The notes below the pieces were generated by a model. That model searched no databases and was not told the DNA's origin. It worked only from the letters and a program-made list of their open reading frames with translations. From contig OZ287753.1 in the NCBI GenBank assembly GCA_965649765.1, forward strand, positions 60,450,001 to 60,514,000: a stretch of 64,000 nucleotides of DNA, given 5' to 3'. Both the position numbers and the translations under genes were made by a program. The DNA comes from Bispira polyomma. Its lineage: Eukaryota. Position 1 is the first letter of the stretch, and each line of letters starts with the position of its first letter. Shown here piece by piece: positions 1 to 62,435 of this stretch.

Positions 1-3000
1 ATGTCACGTTCTATGTAATTGTAGATGAGTAAGGGGGATGTTGTTCTGATACAGAAAAGACACCCCAGACCTTCGAAAAGCATGAAAACCCAAAGTATTA
101 TAATCTAACTCCATAGAACCAACTAGGGCTTTTAATACAGCCCGGACTCTAACTTGAGTCAGAGGGATGTAACCATGTGATGTAGAAAACACAAAGAGAG
201 GAGAATCCTCAGAAACAGGAAATTTCAGGAACATAGCCTTAATGGCTGATACAGGGCACAAAGTAAGATCCCTCAAAACAGGAAGTTGAATATAGGCAGC
301 AGTAGCTCTGCTTTGTAATGTTTAGACCACTTTAACTTTAGTACACAATGGTTTTGATGAAAACTGACATCCTGCCGTAAAAACAATCTATGCTTATCAT
401 AGACTGAACTAGTAGTAGAAAGTAAATTACTGATTCTGAAAAAAAAAACAAAAAAAGCAGTTAAGAAAACAGCTTTAAAGATAAGGTCATGAGGCACAGA
501 AGAGCAAAGTGATGCCAAATGCCAAGGTTGATTAATAGTAGAAACATTTTTGATGACAGGACGTCTAGCAACAGTATTATCAATAACCTTCATAAGGCAA
601 GATACTCTCACATCCTCAAAGATGTGGACTGGCAAATGAAACCTAGTAAAAGAATACTTCAAAGAACTGATATGATTAACAAGAGTAGGATAAGCTAAAC
701 CTGACTGTGATAAAAGTTCAATTTAAGCCATGAGGACAGAAACTGTAACCTGAACCAAGGGCACACCATGTGTGACACAGAAAGTAATAAACTTTTTAAA
801 TATGTAATCATATAACTTCCTCGTGCGAGGACGAAAGATTAATGTAGCCCAATGATTTGCAGCCTGAAGAAGGCCATTGAGTCCATTATTATAGCCTGAA
901 GCACAAATTAAATATCTGTATTAAGTTCTAGTACGTCAACAGAAACATTACATACCTGCAAAGCAGGCCATTTTACAAGAATACTTTGCATATCAGTTGC
1001 AACTCAAACACGTGAGAAAGCATCAGCTAACTTATTATCCTGACCAGGAATGTGACATATTTGTAATCGAATATCAAACTGTGCTGTGAGAAACCATATG
1101 TTACGTGCAACTGTTAAAAGGTAGGGGTCAGTAGCCTTGTAGTAATTCAAGGTCTGCACCACAGCCATATTATCACAATAAATAACAACATGCTTGTGAC
1201 ATAAAATTGAACACCAAGTACGTAATGCAACTAACACATTAAGCATTTCCAAATAAGGAATATTAAAGATAGAATACGACATTGGTAGACCCAACTGATA
1301 ACAACAATTATTATACGCAGCACCAATACCAGTTAAACAAGCATCAACATAAATATGATGATCAATAGTGTTATCATCATGAAACACCACCACCCCATTT
1401 AATTTAGTAAGAAAAGCATTAAACCATGCAAGATCTAACTTAAAGTCCATAGTGAGCACAATAGAGCCTTTATCAGAAGCCTTCCGCATTTAGGCCAACA
1501 TATGATTTACAAACAGCCGAGCAGGTTTAACACATCGACTAATATACAACAGTTTACTCAAAATTGATTGCAATTGAGTTTTAGTTGCCTGAGACTTGCT
1601 AGACCAATCAGCACATAAATCCACAATTTCAGTAAGCTTAAGAGTAGGAATGCGAATGCAGCATTGTAATACATCAAATTCAATACGAAGACAAGTGACC
1701 ACCTTACCAGGTGGTTCTAGCTTATTACTGCTAATTGGCAATGCTAAATCTGACAGCAGGCCTAACAAGAACTGATAAGCTTCAGCTGATTTTTCTAACA
1801 AATCATGTATACCAATAATATCAGAATAATTCCACAGAGTATAACCTCTCAAGGTCATAAGATGCCTTACAAAATCTGTCATTATCTGACTATAAGTACT
1901 TCCATGCCTTAGGCCAAAGGGGACCACAGTGTCAATCTAATAGCTACCCTCAAAATATAAACCAAAATGACAATAATCATGTGGGTCTACCCGCAAATTT
2001 CTAAAAGCTCGTTCTAAATCCGCCTTGAAAATATAACAGTCACCAGTAACAGACATCTTCTTAATGCAATCAACCACTTGATCAATGCTAGGATAAATAA
2101 GACTAATTAAACCATTAAGAAACACATCTTTATCAATAACAGAGTTAACTGCAGCCTCTGGTGACCATGATAAGTCCACAATGACTCTTCTCTTAGAAGA
2201 AGTAGCTTTATGCCGAGCTAGCATTGGTGAAGTATGCAAACCTTTAATAGGAGCTATAGTATAGGAACCGACAATGGCTCCATGGTTAACTTTAGTGTTA
2301 AGATAGTGACAAATATGTGTAGCATAGGACTGAGCTGAGGTGTGATTATAATTTTTTGACTTAAGGTGAGAGACCATACTCATGCTCAAAGGGAACCCAA
2401 ACTCCAGAAACTAAAGTAATTGTTGGTCATGATAATGTTTAAAGTAGTGTTTCCAGTTAGTGATGTTGAGGCTAGAATGAACTGGAATACAAGGATAAAT
2501 GAAATTATAAGTACCCCCAAGCTCAGTAACAATGTTATACAAGTCTACCAGAGAATTATAAGCAATGTCATTAACCTCCATGGACTCAGGAAAAAGTACA
2601 GGTGAATTAGCTGTGAAGCCAAAACTTACTTGTGAAGGGTAAATAACATTGCAATAAATTGCATTTGCAATGTGACTAACTTGTACATACACACTTAAAA
2701 TAGTGTGAAACAATACTATGTTGTGCCAACATGATAAAATATAAAGATACCATAACTGCAAACATAACCAATATGCAGAAGTCATGTAATAATGCATGCA
2801 ATACCATGTGTACTACCACCACCAAAATATAACAACATACAGTGACTTATACAACACCAATACCAATAACATAATAACAGTCCGCTCAATAAGACAGAGT
2901 TAGCACTGTGATCCAATATATCACAAATGCCCGAAGTAACAGGAATAACACCATTGTCTAATACTGAATTATGACTACTACATGAATTATGACTACTACA

Positions 3001-3827: not shown

Positions 3828-4425
3828 CTACACACACTTTGTGTGTACAATGGATGGGCCATTCTCATCGTATTCCTGCATGCTGATCCACATTTCTTGG
3901 AAGGTAGAGAGGGAGGCCAGGATGGAGCCTCCAATCCAAACAGAGTACTTCCTCTCTGGAGGTGAGGTGATCTTAATCTTTGTGGTGGAGGGAGCCAGGG
4001 ATGTGATCTCTTTCTCCATCCTATCAGCCATACCAGGAAACATGGTGGAACCTCCAGCTAGGACCATGTTGGCGTACAGATCCTTCCTGATATCCACATC
4101 ACACTTCAAGATGGAGTTATAGACCACCTCATGGATTCCTGCCCTATCCATACCTATTAAACTCGGCCGGAACAAGGCCTCAGGGCAGCGGAAGCGCTCA
4201 TTGCCAATGGTGATGAACTGACCATCAGGAAGGTCGTAGGTTTGCTCCTGGGATGAGGAGGAAGCTGCAGTTGCCATTTCCTTCTCAAAATCCAGGGCCA
4301 CATAGGCCAGCTTCTCTTTGATATCTCTTACAATTTCTTGTTCAGCAGTGGTGGTAAAGCGGAAGCCTCGTTCTTCCAGGATCTTCTTCAGATAATCAGT
4401 TAAATCTCTACCTGCCAGATCTATC
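3828..4425 (-). CDS. Act: Actin-A coding exon 4
   Basis: ORF 3828..4301 extends to a CAG acceptor at 4426-4427; 598 nt as in Actin-B. Confidence 0.92.
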
Positions 4426-7400
4426 CTGTAATATCATATAGTTTTTCTTTGAGGTCAATAAGCTATTTTTTTTAATTTTTTTTTTTAATTTGGATATTTA
4501 ACGTCCACTCTAGTACCTGTTTAGGTTATATTGGGAAGGGTAGTTGGAAACGCTGGAGGAAACAGTGCATACAGTTGATCAAGGTTCTGCACTGAAACCA
4601 GCGGCCCACAGTAAGGAACTACCACCTTTCCCACAAAGGCATCGACGGGATTCGAACTCACGCCGCCCAGAGGTGAGAGACCAGTGATTGTGAAGCGCAG
4701 TGCTTGCTAACCACTAGGCCACTGTGGCCCCGTGAACAAGCTATAACATACACGTTTAATACAACTAATTCAACCTTGTTTTTAGGGTTCTACTCTACTA
4801 CAATGGTATATTTATTTATCATATACAATGTTATAAATTACATTTACACAATTTGTAATATTGGGACAGTCTTGTTTTGTAATGCTTTGTCTACTTTCAT
4901 TATATAATTTAAAGAGTTAGTACTGTAGACACACAAATGCGCTTCTAATAAACCACATTGTGTGTGGTAGAGCTTATTTGTAACGATAGTACTTTATTTT
5001 TGTGGCCTTAAACTCGGTTTCTGGATAATATATTTGTATTTTTATCAGTACAACTAATATAGAATGATCTATAGTTTAATTGTATGCTGATTGATAAATT
5101 ATAATTGTCATCTTAGTAGGTATTTTGCGACATATTATACAAATATCAATGTGTATAATTGTAACAAAAAAAGACGACTATTTTTCAAAGTACACGCTCT
5201 ACAAATTCACATACAATTCACATACAAAGAAAAAATCAACACAGAAGTACACCACCAGAAAAAGGAAATTTCAGCATTATTTTGAATGATTTATTTTTCC
5301 AATTAAAATACAAAAACTGGGTTTATTTTCTAACAAAAAGAGTCCTTTGTATTCTTTATTTATACAACAAAAAGAAACATATTTCCACGAAGTAATAAAA
5401 TTTACAATGGTACTTGCATATAAAAATGTTTAAACCGACCACTAAAGAACAATTGAATGGCCGCTGTATGGGGTAAATGTGCTAAAATTGAAATTGTGAA
5501 TATAGGATAACATCTCATCAGCGCATTTATGTGTTTAAGTTCATAGACTCTTAATCATACACACCACTCGTGTAGATTACTAATATATACATCCCTGATA
5601 AAAGAAATTTTCTTATGATAGAAATACAATAGTCCATTATTTAAAAAAAATGATAATGTCTATAATTTAGGATATTTTTGCACTCACACCAGAATGATTT
5701 GTTCTGGAACATGTAGAAAAAGATGTAATTTAAAGGTTTACAGTGGTTCTTCTATATCTTTGACTTGTATGATATCTTACCTAAGGATAGCATTGGTTAC
5801 GGCAGACCCGTCATAGACAGGTACAGTGTGGCAGACCCCAGCCCCTACATCCAACACTTGACCAGTTTTCCGGCCTGAGGCATGCAGAGCTAACACAGCC
5901 TGAATAGCCACGTACATCGCTGGTGACTTGAAGGTCTCAAACATGATCTAAAACAGACAGGATCAAGTACCTTAAATGTATCATCTGAGAAAGTTCAAAA
6001 CACTAGAGTCTCAATAAACTTCTGTACATGTTTGACTTTCTGGGACTTTTTTCAGAAATGTTAATTTGTAAAACTGTTAAACATCACTGTAACAATGCTT
6101 TTGTTTAAGGTTTAGACCACGTTATATAATAAAAGAATTAATACGATAATGAAAACCTTTTGCAACATAAAAAGCTGGAAGTATTACTATTATTGTGGGC
6201 ACCTGGTAAATCCAATGTTTAGCAACCAACCTGATACACAGTCATGTCATCTACCGTGTTCTTTAACTTTTATTGTTTCATAGGCCACATCCTCGTGCTA
6301 AAGATCAATCATGAGGCTTAAAGATTGATCTTCTGTATCCCTGAGTTATCCTGTCACATTGTAAAGATAAATCTTTACAAACACAGATACATCAGGGAAG
6401 CCTAAAGATAACTCGAAAAGACAGAAGAATCGGGCCATTGTTACGATAACCTGGGAAGCCTAAAAATAACTCAGGGTTTGCAAAGCTAACTCGGGGGACG
6501 TAAAAAGTTGGCAGTACAGCAGGATTGAAATTGGGTCCAAAAATCACATAAAAGCCACTCGTGCAAGCAACTTCAGTTCATTCAGAAATTTTCAACAGTC
6601 AGAGAAGGGTGTGCATTTTAAGATACATATATAAAGGTTTTTGTTTGTTTCAAATATAAGTGATATTATAAGTTAAGATAATTATGCCACCAAAAAGAAA
6701 ACAACAAGGAAGAGGAGGATAGTTAAGAAGTAGGAGAGCAGGGAGTTCGACTTTTGGGATGTAGTGAGGGAACATCATTGCAGACGGACATCATTGCAGA
6801 AACTCAGCCGTCACAGCTGACACCGACAGATGTTCATGTCACAGTCACGGCTGGCAGGAGACACCAAGCGATATGGACTTAAAGGTTTCAGCCTTCAGTA
6901 GCCGTCATTCCAAAAAGGGGAAGATGAAGACTATGCTTCTGATAGATGCCGAGTAGGAGGCAGTTGTGGACTTTTTAAGAGTGAATGAGTTGTTGTACAA
7001 AAAGAAGGATCCTGATTATAAGGACACCCAAAAGAAGAACATTTTGTGGAAGGGGTTTTGTGATGAGAATGGGGTAGACCACGTGGAAGTCAAGAAGTGG
7101 TTCCAGTCGCAGCGGACTATGTTTGGGAAGCAGTCAGTCCCAAAGTCTAGCCAGGCTCCGCCACAGTTCACCCAGAGGCAGATATGGGTCACGGGGACCT
7201 TCGACTTTCTCAAGCCACCCTCATTAGACAGCCATAAAAGACCGCTTAATTCAAACCCATACCGTCGCTTCACTGGGGGCTGCACCAGGGTCGCACAGCT
7301 AGGTCGAGTCTTTCCTCAACACTATGCCCGGGGGCTGTGCATTCTGCGCATTACAGGCATGTCAAAGTCTCGAAATGAAATAGGACATTTGTTATAGCGC

Positions 7401-9936
7401 ACTTACAGAACACAGTGTCCTTTCAAATGCGCTTCCTCATGCGCAGTCACTATGGGCGCCGAGGTGCTTGGGGATGACCATTTATCAACATCCCCGAGGA
7501 TCTTTAATTTGCCACTGAAGATATTACTCAGTGACAGAGGACCGCCATTTTAAGTGGTCATCCAAGCCACTAGTCTTCTTATTCTTGCTTGTATATCTAA
7601 AACAGCTGTCACTTGTACTTGTAAAGAGGTAATTAAAACTTGTAGATTACTGGCAATCTGTAATGGTCTTTCTGAAATCATATTATCTGGTTGACTTTTA
7701 AAATTAAACTGACTGATTTTGTAATCAGAAACCCTTTATATAGTGTATCATGTGTAATTTGGAAGTATCGTGGCCCCCCGAGAGTGTGATTGGTAGGATT
7801 GGATCTGGAGAAGGAAAAACCACCCCAAGTTATCGTTAGTCATTAATTTGGCATTCCCCGGGGTTCAGTCGTGGGTGCAATTTTGTTTCCAATGTACACC
7901 ACTCCACTCAGCAAGATCATTGCTCATACATACAAAAACAGAAACTTTCATATTATGCTGATGATACCCAATTGTACATCCACCTTGCACCCGATTCTAC
8001 CCAGGCAGTTTTCACATCCTTACAGAACTGCTTGCTTTTAGGCGAATTCAACGTTTTCTCACCAAATCAACTGCAATCACTGTTGCCAACGTCTTGGTCA
8101 GCAGCAGGCTTGATTACTGCAACTCTCTGCTCCATTTCCTATCTTAGACGCCTTCATAACGTTCAACACTCACTGGCTCGCATTGTGGCCAAAATTTCTT
8201 ATATTACTCCTGTACGCAAGTCACTTCACTGGCTCCCAATAAAATATTGTGTTGCTTTCAAAACTGCAACAATTTTATACAAATTTCTAAATTCTGGATT
8301 ACCCCTGGATTACCACGATAGATTAGACCTATCGTTGTATCCGTACGAATTATCTTTAGCATTGTAAGCAGTTCTCCCGAGTTATTTTCAAAAATTGGGG
8401 CTGTAGGGGACGCAGATATTTCGTCCAGGATCCAATCAGCTCGATTAATCTTGCCATCTAAGGACCAATCGTGCTTTATCGGATCATGCTTCAGACCTCC
8501 ACTTGTGAAGCACAACGATTATAGTCGTGGAATGTAATGTTTCCCACCCTTTTTCAAATTATCGGGAGCAAATGACGTTTGCCCCCCGATCCCAAATCGG
8601 GGCCAACTCCCGATCACTCAGCTAAGTGCAACAACCCCTTTACCAGAGTCCGCTCTCTATTGGCATTAAAGCCTCGGTCAGCAGCACTCAATGTTTTCTA
8701 GAGTCACACTATCAACCACACACATACACCTACCTAATAATTAAGACCACCATATCTATAGGGCCACGATGGTGTATTGGCAACACATTTGCCTTTTACC
8801 TATGTCACCATTAGAATCAAAATTAGAGCCACACAACCAACCACAATTATACAGACACAAATGTACGTCCACCCAGTAAATTACCTTTGTCATCTTATCC
8901 CTATTAGCTTTAGGATTCAGTGGGGCAGTATTGGATGCTTTTATGTAGCCAAACAAACAACCACACATACACCCACTCAATCACAAACCATTACACATTT
9001 ACATATTCGAACTTTTGATAGCATTTAAATATTTATTTAAAGTATTCCTATGTTATATTTTTTCTGTGCTTTTTCTGTTTAAAGTTAAAGCAAAGTAATA
9101 TTTTGGTTGAAATCACTTTATCTTAATTGTAATCTCTTTTCGCAGGAACACAGCTTTTAGATTAGTTAGCCAATCTTTTCTTCTCAGAAAAATGTCTTTA
9201 TTACCGAAGTTACAAAGCTCACAGTGGTTGTAAAGATATACAATAATTTAGGTCCTCCTTAAAAATGTCATTTGCTGATTCATACCTGTATGAAAAAATT
9301 TATGTTGTCAGCTTTAAAGCTACATGGAGGAAACAGATATTTACTAAGGCGTCATATAACTGGAAGTGGCTACACTGAGATAAAAGGGTAGGCACTCTAT
9401 AATTACTGAAAGCAGTTATCACATAAAAGTCAGTTTGGAGTGAGTATTAAGATGAGTTAGTGTCCTTACAGGTGTTTGGGATAAAAAGTGATTTGTTTGG
9501 GGGTAATAAGTTATGCTATAGGATTACACTGGGACAAGGTAAATGTCAAATTTTGTTAACTGAAAAAGGTGTTGTCAGAGTTAAGTATAAGAGTTACAGG
9601 GAATTATGAAATAGTTTGTTCTAGAAAGTTATCAATTAAATTTAAATTGTTGTATTAGTTATATGTAAAGAACAGTGATTATGTTAAACATTAAAATTAA
9701 AGGATCATAAATAAACAAATATGGAAAATGGTGATTTTGTGTTTATAGAAATATCAACATACAGGACCTAGTGTTTTACTTATATATAACAAAATCAGAC
9801 ACATACAGACAAATAAAAATATATGATCATTTGTCTTACCTCTGTCATCTTCTCCCTGTTGGCTCTAGGGTTCAGTGGGGCCTCAGTCAGCAGTACTGGA
9901 TGCTCCTCTGGTGCTACCTTCAGCTCATTGTAGAAG

Positions 9937-9972
<36 letters not shown>

Positions 9973-12900
9973 GTGACAATACCATGCTCAATAGGATTCT
10001 TGATAGTGAGGATACCGCTACTACTCTGGGCCTCAGTCAGCAGTAATGGATGTTCCTCTGGTGCTACAATCATCTCATTGTAGAAGGTGTCATGCCAGAT
10101 ATTCTCCATATCACTCCAGTTGATGATAGTACCGTGCTCAATAGGGTTCTTGATAGTACGGATACCTCTGTTACTCAGGGCCTCATCTCCAATATAGCAG
10201 TCCTTCCCACCCGCCATCACTTCCTGGTAGTACAGAATGGAACAAAAGAAGTTTAAATCATCCGAATCACTATACTTTACAAGTACCAGAAGGTGGGTGG
10301 TCTGTCATTATGTGCAGGAGACAAAGCAATAATTCGCTGAAAATAAGATTCCCCGTGATGCCACCCCCCTAAAGACTTTGTTATTTTTTACCAACAATAA
10401 GTACATGGACAAAATTGGCCTTCTAATTTTGGTTGTTAGGGTGAGGATTGTTTTTTTTTTATATGTCAAAAAATTTTTTTTCAATATACAGTAATGTGTA
10501 TCAAGTGGGTGTATGTTTTTTTGCTTTGCATTTCATGAGTTTAAATGGAATATTTATGACATCTTTGGATAGAAAATACATGACCAGAAATATCCTTTTT
10601 AAACTTTGATTATTTTTCAAAGAAAGTTAATCAATCATCTGTAAAATAATTTTTCATATAAAAAATATGTTGGACGTTTCTGTAACTAGTGACATGCTTA
10701 ACACTAGTTAATTGATCTGAAGACAGTCCCTTATGATACGAATTCAGCTTGAAGATTGGGTTGTACTTGCCACGGTGTGATGATTCTCCAGCCCTTGAGA
10801 GATGACCATACTATGTAGGAGTGGGAGAAAAGTGGAACTTTGTAATGGTGAACAAGGACCATATTCACAAACTTTCTCAGAATGCAATTATTGATCTGAA
10901 GACAGTCCATTATGATACCAATTCAGCTTGAATATTGGGTTGTACTTGCCACAGTGTGGTGATCCTCCAGCCCTTGAGAGATGAACATACTATAGGAGTG
11001 GGAGAAAAGTGGAACCTTGTAATGGTGAACAAGGACCATATTCACAAACATTCTCAGAATGCAATTATTAGAATATTCTTAGTTCTCAGCCAATCAGTTT
11101 TTGGGAAAATACTTTTAGCCAATCAAATTTCTTGAGACAAAAAGGCAAACAATCATTGTGAATACTAGCCCTATTCTTATGTAAGGACTGAAAGTTCTGC
11201 ATTTTCCCAATGATTGTAAAAACACTATTGTCAAGACAAGGCAGAAAGAATCAGGTCAGAAGAGAAAGTGTTCTGAGAAAAACATGAGGGAAAACTACAC
11301 TGTGTCAAGAACAAGGTAAACAAAGGAAAGGGCAAAGTGTGTGATTACACCAGAAATACTTCATGTTAGTGTTATGTTTTGATTGTGAAAGTACCAGGTT
11401 TGCCAGGGAGGGGACAAAGGATAAACAGGTGATTACCATGAACAGTAGTGAAGACACAGTCTACAGTTAAACCTCTTGTGCAACCTTTGCCATATTATGT
11501 GGTATTCTGTATGCAGACTGCTACAATAGACAACATTCAGAAAACTGTACTGAGTCACTTCCTAGCTGATGCAATAATGGACACTAAAACTGCATTGTGG
11601 GCCAATAATTATTGTTGTGCAATTGGAATTAAAACAAAATATCAGGACTTGGCAAAAAAGGTCAGAAAAGAAGCCAATATCGATGATATTGTATATTCTT
11701 TGCAACTTGAAAATAAACTCAATAAAATGTCATATTTTGTTATAGTCCCTTAAGTTTAAGCATGATATCTAATTAAGGCCCTTCTAAAGAACTCAATAGT
11801 ATCTCTTTTTTGAAAGACATAACCAACTAGAACATTGTTTAAAAAGTATGCTTGAAAAGACTAGCTTTCTGTTTTTCAAAAAAACTGGTTGTTAAATCAG
11901 CAAAATATTTTGTATGGCCATAGGTTTCCTATCTAGTAAGTTTAAATCTGGGCCTGTATTCAGTAAAGGTCTCCGACTTGTGGGGTTTTTCCACTATCAC
12001 AAAGTATCCGGGAGAGGCCCTGATTATGCGATCGGGACCAATCCTTGGCATTTCCCCACAATGTTTTAAAAAAAGGGCACGAAAAAATGCGCCACCAGAA
12101 CTGCTTGCGATCCAATAGATAGGTCGTAAGCACATTATGATCCAGTCATTGGACACTAAGATAAGTTGGCTGATGAACAACTGATCCAGATCGAAATCTT
12201 AGTATTACTAATTGGCAGGTACTGTTTTCATCAAATGCTATATAAACGAGGGCTCAAACTTAAATCCAGACAGTTTTAATTCAGAAGTTAAGTGATCAAC
12301 ATGATTCCACAAAGAATAATAAATATTGCAAATGGAATTGCAAACGGCTGTAATTGCCTACATGCAAGTACAAGTGATGGCTAATATGGACATCGAAGGC
12401 AGGAGAAGAAAATTAAGAAGGCAAAGGGAGACACTGAAGCTACAGCCTAAGACCAAGGTTCTGAATCAAGCCATGGCTCAGCAGAAGCGTGAAACATGCC
12501 CACTACACAGCACTTATGTCACGCCTGGAGCCACAAGATCTCCAGTCGTACCTCAACATTATCAGGATCCCCCTGACGTATTCCAGGAGATGGAGAGGGT
12601 GGGGCACAGGATACAGAGACAGACCACCTGGTACAGGAAGGCACTGTTCCCTGGCTCAAGATAGCTATCACATTGAGGAATTTGGCCACTGGGGAGTCCT
12701 GCACATCGCTACAGTACTCGTTTGTAGTGGGCAGGTCAACCATAACTAAGTTTGTGCCACAAATTTGCCAGGCCATCATCGACGAGTACCAGTAAAAATT
12801 CCTCACATGTCCCACCAGCCAGGACGACTGGAAGAAAGTCAAGTCCATGTTCCGGAACACGTGGAACGTTCATAATTTCCTGGGGGCCATAGCTGACAAA

Positions 12901-15076
12901 GACATTGGTATGAGATGCCAGAAGAAGGATGGAAGCAAGTACTTCAACTACAAGGGGTACCACTCAATCGTCATGCTTGTCGTGGTAGATGGGATTACTG
13001 TTTCCTGTGGGTCAACACAGGTACAAGCGGCTCATGTTCGGATGGCCAGATTTTGAACATATCCAAACTAAAGGAGAATATAGAAGACCACTCAATCAAC
13101 TTTCCCCCATCCCCCTAAAACAATTAGCATTGTCAGAACCCCTGTCCCCTACTTCATCCTAGGAGATGACGCGTTTGCCCTAAAGACATGGTTCATGAAA
13201 CCGTACTCCCGACGAGGGATGGACATTAACAAAAGGTTATCTAATTGGTATTTTTGGAAGTCATCTATTGGCAGCGTTGACTTCTTCATAAGGGTGGTTA
13301 TAACAGCACATTTTAAAGCACCAGGAAAAGTTCCAGTAAGTAGAGAAAGATTAAATAGCTTAGTGATAGTTGATGCTAGAATATATTCTGCATGGGAAAT
13401 CTTTAAAAAATTTTACTATGTCATCATTATTGACGAGAAGGAGAAAACATAGGCATAGGCTCAGACGAGAAACTTGATGCCATGTTTTGATCTGGAAAAC
13501 TGTCTCTTATCTTTTTATTTTGTGCTAAAAAGAGGACAGAATTATTACAGAGGGATTTAACTGAGATGACATTAGTTTTGTAAGTACCTTATTGTGTTCC
13601 TTATTTTCGTGGCATAAATTTTATGACACCAGACAGGACCAATCTCAATACGCTGTGCCTTGTAAAGCAGAGATACAGGGTAAAAATGTTACATTTAGTC
13701 CAGAAAAACATATCAGTTGCATTTTACAAGTGCAAATGGTACAGCACGATTATCTTTAATGATATCTTTATAAGCTATCCAATAGTATAGTTTTTCCAGG
13801 GTATTTCACTTAGGGCCTCTGATAAAGGCTTACATTTTATGTATCTAACATATAAGTTTTATATCCATGCTGATAGTATTTTTGCCCTTTTCTGAATATG
13901 ACTTGTAAATATAAATTGTTAAAAACATACTGTATGTCCCAAAATGGGGGACCTTAGTAGTAAACATGTTACCATGTTTAGTACAGCGGGGTTAAAAAGT
14001 ATTAGATATCCATTTGGTTTACTATGTAAATTATATTCTGTCCTCTTGCCACTCATATGCAAAGACATGCCTGTAGATATTCAGTTACACCTTCTTTTTA
14101 TAAAAAAAAATTTCTCGTATTATTTCTGTAACAATAAAGGAATAAATTATTACAAATGTATAGTAAACTAGTTGTAGGTGTCTGTATCAAACAGTTTCAA
14201 CTTTCTGGTATATAATATATAAAAATACATTTGTGCACTTAGCTATTAATAAACTTGTATAATAATAATGTACTTAGTACATATACCACAACCAATGATT
14301 CCTTAACAAAGAAAGAGACCAATAATTCACAGTTTAGTAAACATGAATTATATGATATTTTTGAATATGTTAGAACAGATTAATGTGTGTATCAATACCT
14401 AAAATATGTATTGTAAAACTAGTATATATTTCTGTTCATTCATGTTTTTCTTTTATATCTATCTTTTTTTCTTAAACCATTGTACTAGTACCAATGACTG
14501 TACGAAGTAAGTCAATAATAATAAACCATTTAATTCAAGAACAAAAATAACACAGAAATTCAGAAACGTTTCTAGAATTTATGGGACAAGGCGCGGCCAT
14601 GTTGATTTTGGTGTATAAATACATTGTTTAGATTTAGGGATAACAGTTATTCCAGAATATTTTATCTTTCATTTTGATAACTACTTGTAATATGGCCACA
14701 CTCTGTCCAGTTAATTATTGACTAAACCTGGTCTGGGCAGAATAAATAGGTGGTCATTTAAAAACCACCATCGATCATTTTGAAACTGCCAAAGTCAACA
14801 CTTGGATCAGATACAATGATGTGTCAATTAGTCATCAGTTTCATTATCTGTTTAATTTAACAAAACTAGAATTGACTCTGTTTCAAAATCACCTATTTAA
14901 ATTTAATACTGACGCCTTTCCCTTGACTTCTATCATTGGCTGAGACAACGTACCTGGTGACGTGGTCGACCAACTATGGAAGGGAACACAGCACGTGGTG
15001 CATCATCACCAGCAAAACCTATCTTAGACATCCCAGAGCCATTGTCAAATACCAAAACAGATGCTTTTTCAGCCAT
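3828..15076 (-). CDS. Act: Actin-A, divergent actin paralog, 423 aa; join(15076-14954, 10223-9840, 5947-5781, 4425-3828)
   Basis: Four exons translate to actin; all junctions are GT-AG at the same positions as Actin-B. 123+384+167+598=1272 nt, open frame ending IVHTKCV-TAG. Confidence 0.88.
4467..4731 (-). mobile_element. tRNA-derived SINE in Actin-A intron
   Basis: A-box TGGCCTAGTGG, B-box GTTCGAATCCC, A-rich tail; TSD gtcaataagctat (4454-4466) / gtgaacaagctat (4732-4744); absent from the matching Actin-B intron. Confidence 0.85.
5781..5947 (-). CDS. Act: Actin-A coding exon 3 ([16 protein letters not shown]...[24 protein letters not shown])
   Basis: Manual translation; 167 nt as in Actin-B; TAG acceptor and GTAAG donor. 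Confidence 0.9.
6683..7230 (+). mobile_element. PIF/Harbinger-type Myb/SANT(MADF)-like ORF remnant
   Basis: [25 protein letters not shown]...[11 protein letters not shown]...QRQIW....DFLKP pattern; disrupted N-terminal part. Confidence 0.7.
7370..7575 (-). mobile_element. SINE fragment (core plus L2-type 3' tail)
   Basis: Minus strand has a GGATGAC..TTAAAATGGCGGTCC...TTAAAGATCC core and an AAGCGCATTTGA...GCGCTATAACAAAT tail. Confidence 0.5.
7848..8305 (+). mobile_element. L2/CR1-type LINE RT fragment, internally deleted
   Basis: [31 protein letters not shown] motifs across frames. Confidence 0.8.
9840..10223 (-). CDS. Act: Actin-A coding exon 2, 128 codons, with in-frame 150-nt duplication
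   Basis: CAG acceptor at 10224-10225, GTAAG donor at 9839; two copies of the PIEHG...EEHP.LLTEA block. Confidence 0.88.
10711..11069. repeat. Tandem duplication, about 179-bp unit x2
   Basis: attgatctgaagacagtcc...gaatgcaattatt at 10711 and 10890. Confidence 0.85.
11950..13237 (+). mobile_element. PIF/Harbinger element, left TIR plus transposase pseudogene (~12301-13237), 3' truncated
   Basis: [43 protein letters not shown] motifs; putative TIR GGGCCTGTATTCAGTAAAGG at 11950. Confidence 0.85.
13238..13410 (-). mobile_element. L2/CR1 LINE fragment
   Basis: Translates [34 protein letters not shown], the RT N-terminal region. Confidence 0.65.
14954..15076 (-). CDS. Act: Actin-A coding exon 1 ([18 protein letters not shown]...RPRHQ)
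   Basis: DNGSG phosphate-1 motif; donor GTACG at 14953; upstream acceptor at 15102-15103. Confidence 0.9.
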
Positions 15077-15628: not shown

Positions 15629-15721
15629 TTTTACACAGAGAGAAATAGTCCTTTCAGAGTTAATCCAACCTTAGATCTCGACAGACTGTTCCCTTTCATT
15701 GGCTTTGTGACCAACTTATAT
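15629..15721 (-). promoter_or_regulatory. Actin-A non-coding 5' exon and core promoter
   Basis: Block aligns with 33106-33200 and 55122-55210; ends at donor GTGAGT. The ancestral TATA position reads TCACAAA; a TATAAG lies at 15715-15720. Confidence 0.6.
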
Positions 15722-16205
15722 CTGCATTCTGACAATTTCAGTTTTTTAGATTACAGTTCTTCTGATACATACTTATATTTAATACATAAATAGAGATTTA
15801 TTAAAGCCAACTTTTTTGCAACTAAAAACGAGCCATACTAATAAAAAATATGGCTCATATGAAACCCAAGAGGTTTGCATTGCCATCATAGTTATTACTA
15901 ACCTTTGATAAAATAATTATTTAAAGACGCATCTTGATTTATTATTTTTCTTTGACATGTTTTTTGTTGTTGACATAATGTAGTTCCACTTAGTATTTAT
16001 CTAGGTAAGGATGTGGAATAGAAATAACACATGTATGCCATTCTACTTAACATTAAACAGATCAAGTAACTTTAAATCTAGACTCTTTGTCCTAATTTAT
16101 GACTTTTCTAAACAGTATCAATTTAAGTTTACCTGTGTTATAGACACACGTTTTAGGGGGGTGGGGGGTGGGGGGGGGGGTATTCTTATGTGCATGGTGT
16201 GTTAA

Positions 16206-25069: not shown

Positions 25070-28664
<3,595 letters not shown>

Positions 28665-43619: not shown

Positions 43620-46600
43620 TCATAATGGCTGCAACTTGTATCGTTTTAGTCTGTGTTTTGGGGATTTTGTTTGCTTTTAAATGAAAAATAGTATGCTAAG
43701 CAAGGACAGCTTTCAAAACAATATCTTACTTGCTGTACTATTTTTTGAGTGTTTTGACAATCACATTCGGCCCATCGGAAAACACTGTCCATTCAGCGTT
43801 TCTACTACTATGGCGGAACCAAACGCAGATCGTCGATTCAACACAGGTTCATTATTTGATACCACCCCCTCCCCCACGCCCCCTATGTCGAACATCCCCA
43901 GTACAGACAGGAACCAGTTAGCGTCTATTATAAAGCGTCTATATCGTCTGGATGACCAAATCCAGGAGGTGAAAAGCGTTAGGCAGTGTTCTCACTATAT
44001 ATCCCGAACCTCATCTATTTACAGCTCCCCACGTAGATCAGACAGACTAAATAGAGGGATGTCTGGAACTTCCCAACAAGACAGTTATCACACTATTAAT
44101 AGAGTAGGCAACTGTTACCCAAATATATGTCGTAGAACTTATAAAAGTGCCCAAAAGTATACGGTTGTTCTCAATAAAACCGTACTGTTTTTAATCTCAT
44201 CTGTTGGGTGTTACCAAATCCAAGCAGCTGGACTTGGACTGAGAAAAAGTAGCTGAACAACATGATTCACAAAAAAACACCCAAGTTTCAATAGTTTGTG
44301 AGTTACAGGCTAAAACGTCATTGAAGCATACATTAAATACTCCTTAAATACTTTCTTAGCTATACTCCTAGACCTAAAAAACGTCATGTTGTAGCAGAGG
44401 AAAAAATAATCAAGGAGTTATTTGTACAACATCAAAGATATTCTAGTAAAAATATCAACTTGTAAAATAACGTATGTATCAAATTGTAATTAAATCGTAA
44501 TATGATTGCAGTTTCACTTTGATTGATCTTTATATGAAGCAATACTTCATTAACAATAAAATAACCTAAATATTATAAAATTTGAAAAGTAATTCTTGTC
44601 GAGAGCCAGAAAAATTCTTGTTAATTCTTCAATTGTATGTTATGTTTAGTACTATGTGTGTGGTCCATGTGAGTGTGTATTTGTTCCTATTTTGTTTAGT
44701 TAAATGTTGTCTCTCTCAGTTGCTGATAAATATAAACAAACAAGAAAATGTTGCTATTATGATTGTTGAAATTTCAAAAATAAACTTTTTGTTAGTAAAA
44801 TTAGACACGAGTTTCAACTGTCATGCTAAAACTTCATTGTATAGAAACGCTATGAACAATACTTATGTACAGCTACATAATACAAAACCTGGTAAAGTTG
44901 TGATGGTATTTCAGTTAGAAAATAGTTTACATTTAAGATGACAGATATCGGTACTATTGACAAGGTTATATTCAGTTCCTTCAATTGTCGAGGTTTACAA
45001 GAAAAGAAAAAAAGAGCATACATATTTCAGTGGCTAAATTCTGTTTATTCTGGCATAATCTTTTTGCAAGAAACTCATAGTTTAAGAATAAATAAAGACT
45101 CCTGGGAAAAAGTGTGGGGTGGCAAAATATTTTTTTGTCATGGGACATCACAAAGTAAAGGTGTAACATTGCTAATTCCCCAAAAATGGAAGTTTAGCTA
45201 CAGTGTATATTTGGTGTCAAAGGATAAAGAAGGTAGACTACTGATAGTGAATTGTTTAATTGAAGATATTCCCTTTGTCCCTTTGCTTTGGTAAATATTT
45301 ATGCTCCCACAAAAGATAAGCTTGATGCCCAATTGAAATTCATTAGTGACTTTAGAGAAATATTATGTAATCTTAATTACAAAAATATAATCATTGGAGG
45401 CGATTTTAATACCTGTTTGAATCCTGACATTGATAAAAAAAGGTGGCAAAACAGAAGTCACTTCACAATACACAAAAGAAATAGAACATATGATAGATCA
45501 TCTTAATTTAGTGGATATTTGAAGACTACGCAATCCTCAAGAATCAAAATTTTTAAAAAGAGAAAGGACACGGGCCGGGCTAGTTCAATCTAGGCTAGAT
45601 TTTTGGCTTATTCCAATGCATATGATGTATGAGGTAACTGATTGTACTATAAAGCCAGGAAATAGGTCTGACCATAGTATAGTAGAAATGAAAATAAAAC
45701 TAGGTGAATTTCAAAAACGTGGACCTACCTACTGGAAATTCAAGAATAGGTTACTCTGCGATAAAGAATATGTAGACATGGTAAAAAAGAAATAGAGTCA
45801 ATCAAGAAAAATGTTTTTATTGAAAATAGAAATACCCTTTGGAACTTTACAAAATGTCAAATACGAACAGTTACAATCTCATAATGTATTAAAAGATCAA
45901 AAAAAAAAATAAAAATAAGGAAAAGAGTTTATTAACAAAATTAGAAAATTTGGAAAAGGAATTAGCAAAAAGTGAAGAGACGCTCATTGAGTACTATGAT
46001 ATTAAAAGTGAATGGGAAAATTTGGAAAGGGAAAAACAGAGGAGATTATGCTTAGATCCAAAGTTAAATGGGTGAAAGAGGGTGAAAAAAATACAAAATA
46101 TTTTCTGAACTTAGAAAAAAAGAATTATAATGTTAAGTATATTAGAAGAATTATCAAGGATAATGGTCAAGAGATTACAAAGCCGAATCTAATATTGAAT
46201 GAACAATTATCTTTCTTTAAAAACCTATACTCTTCAAAAATAGAAAATACTGATACAAAACAGGTACCATTCTTGAATAATTCTAACCTAACAAAATTAA
46301 ATGGTATTGAAAAGGATCTTTGTGACACAAAACTCGATATTAAAGAAATCGCCAATGCACTGAAACAATTGCCAAATAATAAATCCCCAGGTAAATTTTA
46401 TAAATTTTTCTGGACAGACATTAAAAATTTACTTTATGATAGTTTTAATTTTTCGTTTTTAAGTGGCACTTTATCAGATGACCAACGTAGAGCAATAATT
46501 AATCTTATTCCCAAGGATGGTAAAGATCTTCGACATCTTCGTAACTGGTATCCCATTAGCATCTTGAACACAGATTATAAGATATTAACTAAAGCCCTTG

Positions 46601-48800
46601 CCAATAGACTACAACAGGTTCTTCCAAAATTAGTCAATAATGATCAAGTAGGGTATATAAAGGGTAGGTATATTGGACAAAACATTCGAACTATTGATGA
46701 TATAATAAGGTATACAAATTTAACAAATAAATCTGGTTATATATTGTTAGTTGACTTTGAAAAAACATTTGATAGCATTGAATGGTCTTTTCTTCTCAAA
46801 ACCTTGGACACTTTAAACTTTGGTAAAGTTTTCCAAACATGGATTAAAATATTATACAATGACATCAAGACATGTGTAAGTAATAATGGTTATTTCTCAA
46901 AGTATTTTAACCCCAGAAGAGGAATTAGACAGGGATGCCCCATCTCAGCTTTATTATTTATCCTAGTTGTAGAAACCATGGCCAACCACATTAGAGACAA
47001 CGATCAGATAAAGGGAATTACTGTAAAGGATGAGACTTTCAAAATTGTCCAACTTGCTCATGACACCTCACTTTTTCTGAGTAATATATCATCAATAACA
47101 AATGCCTTGGAAACATTTGGTACATTCTACACTTACTCTGGACTCAAAATTAACTTAGAAAAGACAGAAGTTATTCCTATTGGTTCTGCCAAGTTTAAAG
47201 CACTACTCTTGCCAAAGAAAATCAGTAAATTAAAGGTCAACTGTAAGCCTTTCAAAACATTGGGGGTTTGGTTTTCTCAAGATGAGAAGGAAATGGTAAA
47301 GTTAAATTTTGAAAACAGATTGAGGTCTATAGAAAGAATTCTGCAAATATGGATTTCCAGAAATCTATCTCTAAAAGGCAAGATAACAATAATAAAAACA
47401 TTACTTATACCCCAAATAAGTCACATATTGTCCATATGTTACTGTCCTGTGTACATTCTTGAAAAACTGGAAAAAATATTCTTTGAATTCCTGTGGAATA
47501 AAAAAACAGCTAAAATAAAACGATCCACAATTATAGCAAATTATGCTGACGGTGGTTTAAGAATGCCAGATATTTATAGCATACATGTTTGTGCCAAAAT
47601 AAAATGGATTCAAAGGTTAGTTTCAAATGAAAATATACACTCTAGGTGGAAAAACCTGATGTGGTACATGTTAAATATTGATAAAGAACCAATAAACAAG
47701 AAACTTCCTCTGATATTGTCAGAAAGGTCACTAACCTCATTCCACAAACAAACATTAGAGTGTTAGCATAGTATAAAAATTCGAAAACCAGAAAATATCG
47801 CTGAAATTTTGAAAGAGTTTATTTGCAACAACAAGCATATATGTGCAAATGGTAAACCCCTAAACTCCACTAGCTTAAGAATACCAAAAAGCAGTCTTGA
47901 TATTAGAATTTTGACCTAACTAATGGAGAAGGCACCTTTTTATTGTATGCAGATCTAAAAAGAAAATATACTTGGGTTATTGGCTTATATAATTACAACA
48001 TTATTTTATCGGCAATTCCTAGTTTATGGAAAAAAAGAATAAGAGGGTTCCCTTACAGTGAAAATCTTTGTAACTATACTTCCATCAGGATAAAGGGAAA
48101 ATTAGTAAATTTACAAAAAATAAGTAACAAGGCTCTCTATTGGGAAATTTTGAGTGAAAATGTCAAAGATCCAACAGCAGTTAATGTATGGATAGATATT
48201 TTTCCATTTATGGAAACAGCAAAATGGAATCCATATTTTTATCAATACAGGCATAGGGTCATATTTGCAATCATTTCAGTACAAAATAGTAAATAGAATA
48301 TTAAATTGCAACCACACTCTTTATAAATGGAAAATTACAGACTTTGTTGTACAAAGATTAAGCGCTATAAAAGTACGATTAGATTAGATTAGATTAGATT
48401 AGACTCCCCCTTCTGCAATTTGTGCAATGATCATATTGATACATTGGAACATCACTTGTACCTTTGTGTCTATAGCAAAATCTTCTGGGAACATTTTGAA
48501 AATTGGATTTTAAGTTTCTTAACGTTCAGTTACAAGGTTAGATTTACAATTTGTGAAATAATGTTTGGGATAGGTGCAAAAGAATTTACAAGATTACCTG
48601 CAACGGAAAGGGCAGCCAATATTCTTATATTACTTGGTAAATGATACATAAACATGAGTAGAACTTTGAAAAAACCTATCCTGTTTGATGAATTTAAAAA
48701 CATAAACAAGAATAAATTTTCTCTTTATACTAATATATATATATATATATGAACTCTGTTACTGAGATAGATGAAGTAACTGAAGGTATTTTTTTGAATA
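43620..48800 (+). mobile_element. L1/Tx1-type non-LTR retrotransposon, near full length and inactivated: ORF1 remnant (~43810-44000), ORF2 APE (44938-45900), RT (46012-47766), C-terminal Cys/His knuckle (~48410-48480)
   Basis: APE SFNCRGL, FLQETH, NIYAP, GGDFN, SRLDFWL, SDH; RT PISILNTDYKI, DFEKTFD, GIRQGCPIS, QLAHDT (mutated YADD); CAICND..TLEHHLYLC. Multiple frameshifts. Confidence 0.93.
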
Positions 48801-51441: not shown

Positions 51442-53801
<2,360 letters not shown>

Positions 53802-56050: not shown

Positions 56051-59000
56051 TGCCCCAGTTCCACCGGATTTCAGGTAAGCAGTCGTTAGGAATTTGGTTT
56101 TGCGTAAAGTTCACGTGGTATTCGCTGAGCTGAGATTACATACAGAAACATACAAAAACTGATGTGAGAGTTGACACACAAGAAATTTGTAATTTTAAAC
56201 TGTTTAAAATTTGGACACGCAAGAGCTGTAAAACTGTGGTATTGAAACGTGAACTTTTGCATGAGCATTGCGACTTTAAGCGTGATTTAACGTCAGTATA
56301 CGTCACAATGTGTGTATTTGTACATTTGTTCTCGCAAAGACACGTCAACTGTTGCATCATGTCGCCACGTTAATAGTCGCAATTCTATGTTTTGCAACGC
56401 AGCTGTACGTTTAACACATAAAGACTCACAACGACCGGCAAGCTCTTGTAAGCCTACGTTTGATGCTGCAAAACTATATGATTGAACACGCAGGTTCTCG
56501 CAAATGTAACCTTATTAGAAGCAAGCTCCTATTGGCCCACATTACGTCTCACATGTGATAACCCAAGATTCTCCACATGTATTGTATGGCTATGCAAAGC
56601 CACGCACTGTAGTGTAGATATAGCAGTGAAGAAGTGTGGATGAGTTTTTGGATTTATGGGATTTTTTGATGGTGTGTTTTTAATATATGTTCTAATATTT
56701 GTGGATTTACCGTTTTGATTTGTGATACTTTATAATGGTGAGAAGGAGTAATGGAAAGAAATGTCAGCCTGTTGAGATCATTGTCCAGCCTGTTGAGGTC
56801 ATTGTCCAGCCTGTTGAGGCCGAGACTGTTGAGACTGAGACGTGTCTGTTAATGTGGTAGGTGTGACTGGTAATGAACTACCACTATCTTCATGTGCAGG
56901 CCTAAGCACTGCAAAAAAGAATAAAAAAGCAAGTGTTAAGTTGCTCTGTGACCAGGAGGACGACATTATCAAGTGGGTGAAACTACAGAGGGTCCTGTAG
57001 GACAAGGAGTCCCGTGAGTATAGTCTGGCCAACACGGAGAAGCTGGGGATTTAGAACTAGAAAGCAGAGGATTTCAACCTGACAGGTATTGTGATTCTTA
57101 ATTAATGTTTGAATTTAGTCATTCATATGTGAACAATGATATGTAATGCTTTTACTGTACTGATAACTGATGAGCCCTGTTATCCAAACATATTGGGTAA
57201 TCAATACAAGTGTTATTTACTTTCAACAAGTGATCAGCTCCGCCAGTTGCATGAGGTGCTGCAACTCCTGGACAAATATGTGTAAGTAAATTGATATGTT
57301 TCTTGTGTAAAATGCAGTGGAACTTCCATTATCCGAATATTTTATTTTACTATGTTGTGACCGTGGTTTCATCTGTTCTTTATTATAACATGTGCCATTT
57401 ATTGACATTTCCATTATCAGAATTAACAAATTATTTACCCAATATGGTCGGACAATCAAGGTTGTACTGCATACGTGTGTAAATACCAACTAAATTTAAA
57501 TTGCTCAAGGTCAGGTTGGGATTGTGAAACTTAAATTGCTTAAACTTTGCTCATAAGTGGTCCTACGTGTTTGGAATATGAAACCAATGTGTAGCTGATC
57601 AAGGCCTGTGTACTAGTAATGTTTTAATATATTCACATTTGACCAAGGTCAAACTGGCTTGTCAAAGTTTGAATATTGACAATATTTGAAATATCAAAGC
57701 CACTTGTCCCATTTAGAGGTACCTGATGGAAATTATGTGGTTGTGGGTTCAGTTCTTAATGCTTGCCTTCAGTGGGATAATTGAAACAAATTTGGAGGGT
57801 TGAAATCATTCAAAATACATAATATCCTTCCAAAACATTTAATCTTCATTAAATCTTTATTTGTAACTCCCCCCCCCAAAAAAAAAAAAAATTCAACACA
57901 GACATGTAGTAAATGATAAAAACTGATAATGTAGTAAATGTTCAAATTTTTATGTTATCATACGATCCTGCTATGGAACTACACTCCTACTGTTGTAATA
58001 TATCTTAAGTAATTGCCTGTCAAAACATCGTCCATGTCATGCATGTCCACTCCTTGTCAGACGAATTGTATTAGGAACATTATGTTGAAGTTTGGTGGTA
58101 AGACATCGAAATCTGTTGCACAATATGCCAAAAGCATTTTCCACCACACGTCTGGCCCGTGACAGTCTGTAGTTGTATACTTTGTCAGCATGGGTGAAAT
58201 TTCTGTGGCCAAATAGTTTCATAAGAGTCTTAGTCAGGGCAAAAGCATCATCTGCTAACAGAAGGTAAGGCACCGATTCAGAATCCCAAGGTAGCGGTGT
58301 GAGTAGAGGAACAGTAACCCACTGATTCTCCAAAGCAGGTTTTAAGGGTGAATGGTTCCACAGCTGTGCATCACTGCAACTTCCATTGGCACCAACATCA
58401 ATCCACATAAACTTGTATTCAGCATCTACCACTGCCATTAGTATAATTGATGTGAAGTACAGAGATCCGGGACCTTTTGGTTTGACAATGGCCACATGTT
58501 TCCCATCTAAGGCACCAATGGTGTTATGAAAGTTCCATCTGTTGGCAAAAAGAGTAGCCACATCATGCCAACTGTCCTCTGTACCAGATGATTTTAGATA
58601 TGGTATCATGTGCCATTCTGGAAACCATACATCAGACTGTGATAGCTTTGTCCAGGGGCCAAATATCTCATGGTAATAGCCAACATCAACCCAACATCAA
58701 ATACTGGTCTGTGGGTGTTATAGTTGTTTGTTTGACGTCTGAGTCTGCCTTCTAGTCTGTTCATCAGTTCCCTGAAGAACTGTGGGTCACAACGAATAAA
58801 GTTTCTGTAACTAGCTCGATCTACCTTGAGTTCAGCCATTAGGTTTTCATAGTAACCATATTGTCTCCGTCTTAGAAGCCATGGCCTAACCCACACTGTC
58901 CTGTCCCTCCTTTGAGCCCTCTGACAAAGTTGCAACAGATCTACAATATTATTCAAACCTTGCACTTGCAAATTAATAGCCTGATTAAAAACTAGTTGTG

Positions 59001-59663
59001 GCTGCAAAACAGCCTCAGCCATTCTTGGCCTTATGAAGTAAAATTTTTTTTTTTTTTTATTTTTTTATTATTTTATTGTAACAAATGTAAGCTTCTTATC
59101 AAATGAAGACTGACAAGTGAATGGACATGCTTTGCGTACATTTCTTAATATATAGCTACTTACTGGTGCGGCAAGCCATTTGATAGAAAACGTAAAGTAA
59201 CATACATATACTTTAGAAAAGTCGTCTGACTTAATTAAGCGAGTATTGACGTAATAGACGTGATGGAACGTCAATGCAGGTATCATTTGACATAAGTTTA
59301 CCTACATTGACGTAATAAACGTAACCTTACAGAAAACTATGTACACATACACACAACGTAATAAATGATGTGGCTAATCGTAATATGACGGCTTTTGACG
59401 TATTCATATATGACGTTGTACAGGTATTTGCGCGTCTTTGCTTAAACATTTTGACATAATAGTTTGCATCACTTGCGAGTCTTCACATGTTGTGACATAA
59501 CAAAACGTGGATCTCCACGTAAGAGAACGTTTTTGATGTAATGAAAAATATAAATCGACTTCTGCATAGGTTTTTCCAATTGAGCATGGACTTTTACATC
59601 AAATATTTGTGTCAACCTTGAGTGGTTATCATAGATTAACGTACATCCGGTGGGACTGGGGCA
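56051..59663. mobile_element. Full-length decayed PIF/Harbinger transposon: Myb/SANT-like gene (+, ~56736-57090) and transposase (-, 58037-59022)
   Basis: 19-bp TIRs TGCCCCAGT[T/C]CCACCGGAT; TAA TSD at 56048-56050 and 59664-59666; GALDGKH, GSCSDA, ADDAF, RARRVVENAFG motifs. Confidence 0.93.
58037..59022 (-). pseudogene. Harbinger (HARBI1-like DDE) transposase, split by a deletion/frameshift at ~58607
   Basis: ORFs 58606..59022 and 58037..58609. Confidence 0.9.
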
Positions 59664-62420: not shown

Positions 62421-62435
62421 TCTGATTTCCAAAAT

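What the first reader, a model, noticed from the sequence alone, without database searches (positions are those of the whole stretch)
3828..15076. Actin-A substitutions fall on toxin-binding pockets and filament contacts while catalytic residues are kept
Seen (Actin-B numbering): Y69N in both copies, D157A, R206Q, Q59L in copy 1; S141A, Y143H, T148K, Y169S, P172T, H173N, F375V; T194E, Y198F, S199R. The D-loop GVMVGMGQK becomes EVMAGGK (2-aa deletion), the plug FQPSFLGME becomes FRPSLIGMD, and the acidic N-terminus is lost (MAEK). D11, S14, K18, Q137, D154, H161 and R177 are retained. Established: Y69/D157/R206 line the latrunculin pocket; Y143/T148/Y169 line the barbed-end cleft used by the D-loop, WH2/gelsolin-type binders and marine macrolides; residues 194-200 contribute to the phalloidin/jasplakinolide site. 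Inference: a toxin-insensitive or self-selective/non-polymerising paralog beside a canonical copy. Caveat: overall divergence is high, so some hits are expected by chance.
Basis: partly seen in the sequence, partly recalled or inferred. Interest (0 to 1): 0.7.

Follow-up and report, generated by a model that had tools for sequence, protein, structure and literature searches.

The report
Fast-evolving actin copy, altered stacking face
This is the only still-open member of a young, fast-evolving set of four actin gene copies in an invertebrate, likely an annelid worm: its changes pile up on the surfaces actin uses to stack into filaments, not on toxin pockets, so it likely polymerises poorly with normal actin and is probably not a toxin-resistance adaptation.

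Summary
Every listed substitution is real, but the toxin reading fails its own test. With 73 of 375 sites changed, latrunculin (3 of 16, expected 3.1), phalloidin (3 of 16) and macrolide-cleft sites (5 of 27, expected 5.3) are hit at chance level. Filament contacts are enriched about twofold (12 of 30, expected 5.8, P=0.0055; P=0.017-0.04 on other readings of the duplicated segment). Actin-A is one of four A-type genes in a nine-gene tandem array; the other three are broken. omega is 0.62 in the A clade, 0.075 in the B clade and 0.016 in canonical actins: relaxed, not neutral. Actin-A carries an in-frame 50-codon duplication whose first copy decays while the second is held (12 vs 2 replacements, P=0.013). 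The host is not a nudibranch or sponge by COX1. Best reading: a young non-canonical actin with a remodelled stacking face; a slowly dying gene is the main rival. Expression could not be tested. The scan noted filament-defective actin paralogs before, only in Asgard archaea.

The parts
15629..15743 (-). 5' non-coding exon and core-promoter region of Actin-A; splice donor GTGAGT kept; the TATA-like TATAAAG of B-type genes is replaced by CACAAAG (15703-15710), a change shared with paralog A1
   Evidence: 69% match to the same region of gene C; alignment of seven copies; function inferred
14954..15076 (-). Actin-A coding exon 1 (residues 1-41; [11 protein letters not shown]-terminus, C17S, A19I); 5'-UTR intron acceptor at 15102
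9840..10223 (-). Actin-A coding exon 2 (384 nt against 240 in Actin-B): shortened D-loop plus internal duplication
10035..10184 (-). Duplicate copy 1 of residues 57-106 (50 codons), decaying: 12 unique replacement changes
   Evidence: 87% nucleotide identity to copy 2, so not an assembly stutter; TGAGGCCC at all three junctions
9885..10034 (-). Duplicate copy 2 of residues 57-106, held: 2 unique replacement changes; K61S, R62S, L67I, Y69N, R95K against B
5781..5947 (-). Actin-A coding exon 3 (residues 122-177): remodelled cleft and W-loop (S141A, Y143H, T148K, A155V, D157A, I165V, E167D, Y169S, L171V, P172T, H173N); omega 0.26 among A copies
3828..4425 (-). Actin-A coding exon 4 (residues 177-375, stop)
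25070..28622 (-). Actin-B, intact 375-aa gene with the same three coding introns (41/42, 121/122, codon 177); sister clade and comparison gene
51442..53801 (-). Actin-C, B-type pseudogene (most of exon 4 deleted, acceptor AG lost, frameshift)

Best explanation
Actin-A is the only open-frame member of a young four-gene actin subfamily whose amino-acid changes are concentrated on the subunit-stacking surfaces, so it likely binds ATP as an actin fold but likely polymerises poorly, or not at all, with normal actin. Shown: origin by tandem duplication from the B-type genes; relaxed but non-neutral evolution; enrichment at filament contacts on both sides of the long-pitch interface (D-loop shortened, K61/R62 changed; M44 pocket Y143H, T148K, I165V; W-loop E167D, Y169S; H173N; F375V); an in-frame 50-residue duplication near the start of the subdomain-2 helix. 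Inferred: once redundant, the ancestor was freed from filament duty, the interface was rebuilt early, and the new cleft sequence was then held, as for a monomeric or minor structural non-canonical actin (a nascent Arp, possibly germline-restricted); the decaying duplicate copy is predicted to loop out at the pointed-end face. Any latrunculin insensitivity would be a by-product.
For: Shared codon-177 intron and alignable introns and promoter tie A to B; A+B clade 100% and A clade 100% bootstrap. omega 0.615 (A), 0.075 (B), 0.016 (canonical); omega=1 rejected for A, 2dlnL=11.8; terminal branch of Actin-A 0.38-0.49 with intervals reaching 0.76-0.96. Contacts taken from two whole sections of one cryo-EM paper (10.1101/309534): 12 of 30 changed, expected 5.8, P=0.0055, 3 of 374 circular shifts as high. 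Two-paper list 17 of 42, P=0.0007, and 0 of 45 other divergent actins as enriched. 8 of 23 long-pitch contacts are non-B in every A copy available at that site. Exon 3 omega 0.26 vs 0.65 elsewhere, P=0.044. Copy 1 vs copy 2: 12 vs 2 replacements, P=0.013. Neutral survival of the frame over dS 0.08-0.10 is 2-5% from substitutions alone. All splice sites kept.
Against: No expression or protein evidence. Three of four A genes are broken, so the subfamily is dispensable at least in part. The enrichment weakens to 11 of 30 (P=0.017 and 0.040; 10 and 18 of 374 shifts) if copy 1 is used in part or whole, and to P=0.065 without the 165-173 cluster; about ten site sets were tested with no correction. 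The first, larger contact list was drawn from passages found with terms I chose after seeing the substitutions. Contact substitutions are not more radical than the rest (mean BLOSUM62 0.42 vs 0.10). M44, R39, D286, D288, E195, G268 and R290 are kept, so polymerisation is not excluded. Low exon-3 omega could partly reflect gene conversion among A copies (tree length 0.45 vs 0.88-1.0). No surface-versus-buried control was possible without coordinates.
Confidence: 0.5

Rival explanations
1. A gene on its way to death: ordinary birth-and-death turnover of a redundant actin, with the duplication as a de facto inactivating lesion and the contact enrichment a passing result of lost constraint.
For: A1 (stop at codon 37), A2 (exon 1 not found, 1-bp deletion, donor GT to AT, stop in exon 4), A3 (exon 1 not found, stop and truncation in exon 3, frameshift) and C are broken. 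omega is 8 times that of B. TATA-like box lost. A 50-residue insertion beside the D-loop. Birth-and-death is described for primate actins (PMC3690210, abstract).
Against: omega significantly below 1; asymmetric decay of the two duplicate copies implies selection after the duplication; frame and all splice sites intact over a branch on which neutral survival is 2-5%. A very recent death would leave all of these signals in place.
Confidence: 0.3
2. A self-selective actin: both faces of the long-pitch interface changed together, so it forms its own filaments that exclude canonical actin and bind a different set of partners.
For: Partner residues changed on both sides: K61 with E167, shortened D-loop with Y169S, T148K, I165V, F375V. 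New cleft sequence held among paralogs. Several core contacts kept.
Against: K61S/N with E167D removes a salt bridge and R62S leaves D288 unpaired; nothing here shows compensation. The insertion sits at the pointed-end face. Lateral contacts are not enriched (5 of 19, P=0.30).
Confidence: 0.12
3. An adaptation to dietary or environmental actin toxins, like Chlamydomonas NAP1 or the proposed Chromodoris and sponge actins.
For: Y69N and D157A hit 2 of the 5 cited latrunculin H-bond residues; 1 of 45 other divergent actins is as enriched there; Y69N matches the change in the divergent Halichondria actin (PMC12444908, section 6); position 206 is non-Arg in all four A genes.
Against: No toxin set enriched under any null; toxin-only sites 6 of 51, expected 9.9. 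R183, T186, R210, K213, E214 and 13 of 16 phalloidin contacts including I75 are kept (copy-2 reading). Y69N is only in A3 and A4; Y143H and Y198F only in A4. A resistant back-up must form working filaments, yet this interface is the most altered. Host is not a heterobranch or sponge by COX1; diet unknown.
Confidence: 0.08

Closest known systems
Drosophila Arp53D and other young non-canonical Arps (PMC8291977; passages read)
   Same: Lineage-specific duplicate of cytoplasmic actin, fast-evolving fold, altered N-terminus; Arp53D's fold alone was judged too divergent to co-polymerise with actin in vivo
   Different: Actin-A arose by tandem DNA duplication with introns, is younger (dS 0.27 to B), has no N-terminal extension but an internal 50-aa duplication, has no shown retention across species and no shown positive selection or expression
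Latrunculin-resistant divergent actins: Chlamydomonas NAP1; proposed Halichondria panicea and Chromodoris actins (PMC12444908, section 6)
   Same: Substitution at Y69 (Asn, as in Halichondria); sits beside canonical actins
   Different: NAP1 forms resistant filaments and is induced by the toxin; here pocket sites are not enriched, the filament face is, and neither induction nor exposure is known
Birth-and-death actin families with many pseudogenes (primates, PMC3690210; abstract only)
   Same: Many copies, several broken, strong constraint on the core set
   Different: Here a whole subclade shares a rebuilt cleft sequence under partial constraint

Membership tests
Conventional (canonical) actin | Near-invariant sequence under strong purifying selection | tested here: not met
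   81% identity to B; omega 0.615 vs 0.016
Conventional (canonical) actin | ATP-site and catalytic residues kept | tested here: met
   D11, S14, K18, Q137, D154, H161 kept; 2 of 25 nucleotide-site positions (recalled list) changed, A155V and D157A
Conventional (canonical) actin | Intact D-loop, W-loop and plug contacts | tested here: not met
   12 of 30 contacts changed, 2-aa D-loop deletion, 50-aa insertion
Young non-canonical actin-related protein (Arp53D-like) | Derived from cytoplasmic actin within one lineage | tested here: met
   Shared intron, tree and flanks; A-type exon 3 found only in this array
Young non-canonical actin-related protein (Arp53D-like) | Faster evolution with residual constraint | tested here: met
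Young non-canonical actin-related protein (Arp53D-like) | Retained in related species | tested here: inconclusive
   No hit above 82% among the 120 listed, which was crowded by fused actins; the alignment search returned nothing; no close relative of the host is held
Young non-canonical actin-related protein (Arp53D-like) | Expressed, often in the germline | not testable with these tools
   No RNA data were available for this stretch
Toxin-resistant back-up actin (NAP1-like) | Substitution at latrunculin H-bond residues | tested here: met
   Y69N, D157A
Toxin-resistant back-up actin (NAP1-like) | Excess of change at toxin contacts | tested here: not met
Toxin-resistant back-up actin (NAP1-like) | Forms filaments under toxin and is induced by it; host exposed to toxin | not testable with these tools
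   Needs biochemistry, expression data and ecology
Pseudogene | Stop, frameshift or lost splice site; omega near 1 | tested here: not met
   Open 423-aa frame, all GT-AG; omega below 1

The most novel reading that the evidence does not exclude
A newly born, self-selective actin: both faces of the stacking interface were rebuilt together, a 50-residue loop was added to subdomain 2, and the protein forms its own latrunculin-insensitive polymer or filament cap, caught so early that its parent gene, dead siblings and alignable introns still lie beside it.
Probability: 0.12. Interest if true: 0.65.

Novelty: new member of a known kind. Interest (0 to 1): 0.3.

Why it matters
Divergent actins and young Arps are common, so the gene type is not new, and the headline toxin claim does not survive its permutation test. 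What is useful is the snapshot: parent clade, derived clade and dead siblings lie in one array, and the early changes fall on the stacking face. If the gene is expressed, it is a clean natural series for asking which interface changes take an actin out of the common filament pool, and whether latrunculin-pocket changes in divergent actins are adaptive or incidental.

Tried and rejected
Toxin-pocket enrichment: rejected under four nulls. Assembly artefact for the duplication: rejected, copies differ by 13%. Conversion of copy 2 by a B-type gene: unlikely, copy 2 keeps the A-type K95 and E121 and the asymmetry holds with A1 and A2 as outgroups. Removal of one copy as a 150-nt intron: by eye, one GT..AG pair exists in register, with a weak donor, and it would keep the decayed copy; not supported, not tested. 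Sequencing runs: 3 holders in one study, no RNA holder listed; no evidence either way. No reads or contigs could be laid, so polymorphism and fixation of the duplication are open. Ortholog searches: one search was dominated by fused multi-actin records; (alignment of exon fragments) scored nothing and was uninformative; the Atlas gave no answer. Branch rates come from three-point distance decomposition, not from a branch-site model. Literature: no paper with the macrolide residue terms, so the macrolide, cytochalasin, wide latrunculin and nucleotide lists are recalled; no paper held all terms for an annelid actin expansion; PMC13751303 was irrelevant. The COX1 tree was the quick tree with a long query branch and did not place the host.

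Full report
Observation. The window holds three minus-strand actin genes. Actin-A splices (GT-AG throughout) to a 423-aa open frame, Actin-B to 375 aa, and Actin-C is a B-type pseudogene with most of exon 4 deleted. Actin-A has an in-frame tandem duplication of residues 57-106 in exon 2; the copies are 87% identical and the 8-mer TGAGGCCC lies at all three junctions, which suggests slippage or unequal crossover at that microhomology (inference). Using copy 2, Actin-A differs from B at 71 sites plus a 2-residue deletion (73 of 375); using copy 1, at 82.

Toxin pockets. Cited sets: latrunculin H-bond residues Y69, D157, T186, R210, E214 (PMC10744787, passages) and 16 phalloidin contacts (PMC7360965 and PMC12570480, passages). 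The wider latrunculin, macrolide, cytochalasin and nucleotide sets are recalled; two searches for a macrolide list found nothing. Results on the copy-2 reading: 2 of 5, 3 of 16 (wide latrunculin), 3 of 16 (phalloidin), 5 of 27, 5 of 18, all toxin contacts 12 of 64 against 12.5 expected; no P below 0.25, also when stratified by exon. A null weighted by site variability in 45 divergent actins (36 non-redundant domains kept from 75 that passed coverage and identity filters among 256 alignments to the hits, plus 9 loci of this genome) gave the same answer; the lowest P was 0.10 for the five H-bond residues, where 1 of 45 was as enriched. R206, S199, T194 and Y169 differ in 60, 55, 53 and 42% of those actins. 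Y69N plus D157A may still weaken latrunculin binding: a review notes Y-to-N in a divergent sponge actin and Y-to-H in NAP1 (PMC12444908, section 6 read). D157 is also a nucleotide-cleft residue; yeast D157E raises nucleotide exchange and turnover (PMC2397485, passage).

Filament contacts. A 42-residue list from passages of 10.1101/309534 and PMC7247010 gave 17 of 42 (expected 8.2, P=0.0007), with 0 of 45 other divergent actins as enriched. Because I had chosen the search terms after seeing the changes, I rebuilt the list from two whole sections of the first paper: 12 of 30 (expected 5.8; P=0.0055 uniform, 0.0048 weighted, 3 of 374 circular shifts), 11 of 30 on the hybrid and copy-1 readings (P=0.017 and 0.040), and 8 of 25 without residues 165-173 (P=0.065). 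The signal is real but moderate, rests largely on the D-loop/W-loop interface, and is uncorrected for about ten sets tested. That face also binds profilin, cofilin, gelsolin and WH2 motifs (recalled, apart from the W-loop naming), so altered regulation is part of the same picture.

Genomic setting. A genome search gave 88 matches from 126 candidates. The window lies in a tandem array on contig C6 of four A-type and five B-type genes; no further actin exons lay in 30 kb on either side of the 214 kb examined. A-type exon 3 occurs only in this array. A and B share an intron in codon 177 that the 7 canonical genes modelled lack, and their introns and 5' non-coding exon still align. A1, A2 and A3 are broken. 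Of Actin-A's replacements, 32 are shared by every A copy available at the site (N-terminus, C17S, A19I, T148K, A155V, D157A, I165V, E167D, Y169S, L171V, P172T, H173N, R372T and others), 13 are private, 25 partly shared, and 1 lies in a masked codon.

Selection. Codon-model omega: 0.615 (four A genes), 0.075 (four B genes), 0.016 (seven canonical genes); omega=1 is rejected for A (2dlnL=11.8). Counting estimates: A vs B dN 0.104, dS 0.269; Actin-A's own branch 0.38-0.49. Exon 3 evolves more slowly among A copies (0.26 vs 0.65, P=0.044), though conversion may contribute. After the duplication copy 1 took 12 replacements and copy 2 took 2 (P=0.013; 12 vs 3 and 13 vs 2 with A1 and A2 as outgroups; synonymous 3 vs 1), which points to selection on the protein after the insertion and to copy 2 as the structural copy. 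Neutral survival of the frame over dS 0.08-0.10 is 2-5%. The TATA-like box of B genes is replaced in A1 and A4 while the non-coding exon's donor is kept.

Host. The mitochondrial COX1 reads under table 5; its best matches are annelids at 73-76%, listed gastropods 71-73%, with no close match among the 120 listed. The gene blocks cox1-cox2-atp8-Y-G-cox3 and atp6-R-H-nad5-F resemble the annelid order (recalled), but genes lie on both strands and a quick tree did not place the long branch. So: a protostome, likely an annelid, not a nudibranch or sponge; diet unknown.

Mechanism and verdict. Shown: duplication from the B clade, relaxed but non-neutral evolution, concentration of change on the stacking face, no excess at toxin sites, an in-frame insertion with asymmetric decay. 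Inferred: loss or strong change of co-polymerisation, a monomeric or minor structural role, looping-out of copy 1. It works like a young non-canonical Arp such as Arp53D (PMC8291977, passages), but retention across species and expression are untested, so membership is open. A recently or nearly dead gene (0.3) cannot be excluded. Earlier scan notes held nothing on actin in this genome and only archaeal actin paralogs elsewhere; they did not change the reading. No supplements were read; residue tables in figures, which are not held, could refine the contact lists. Interest 0.3.

Noticed in passing
G000 C3:56,985,001-57,065,000 (L044-L051), C4:31,470,001-31,580,000 (L058-L068), C14:470,001-560,000 (L069-L077); at least 17 places on C2, C3, C4, C5, C6, C9, C10, C14: A 54-56 kb unit, 97-99% identical between chromosomes and often in head-to-tail pairs, carries an intron-bearing actin pseudogene (frameshift near residue 145, 31-residue deletion) with nested reverse-transcriptase elements. 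It looks like a recently active giant mobile unit or segmental-duplication family; no transposase was found in 8 ORFs scanned. Termini not examined.
   Followed up: partly
L021-L024 (C2:96,852,469; C10:28,906,028; C14:21,853,006; C1:99,266,277), L029, L033, L035, L038: Further divergent actin lineages at 55-83% identity, four of them intronless and open; the genome holds an unusually varied actin family.
   Followed up: partly
window 25070-28622 and L009-L012: B-type actins are themselves a derived clade with S155A, I151L, L153F, S271A, T278S and an intron in codon 177 absent from the 7 canonical genes modelled.
   Followed up: partly
window 8881-8926, 52866-52934; L025 4225-4541: Degenerate copies of the 3' end of exon 2 lie in intron 2 of several actin genes, so this segment duplicates locally again and again.
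   Followed up: no
window 1-2800 and 60000-62500: Decayed DIRS-like retroelement remnants (recombinase-like and RT/RNase H-like frames; one Pfam RVT_3 hit); the first lies between Actin-A and paralog A3, whose exon 1 was not found.
   Followed up: no
window 6957-7397, 12323-13452, 58037-59064; 44926-48296: Harbinger-like DDE_Tnp_4 and MADF remnants, two of them in Actin-A's introns, and a LINE with an RVT_1 frame.
   Followed up: no
window 27422-27778: 15-bp minisatellite in Actin-B intron 2 that gives open repetitive frames.
   Followed up: no
G000 C75 (L042-L043), 15,503 bases: Mitochondrial genome with genes on both strands and a long-branch COX1 with no close relative in the protein collection.
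   Followed up: partly
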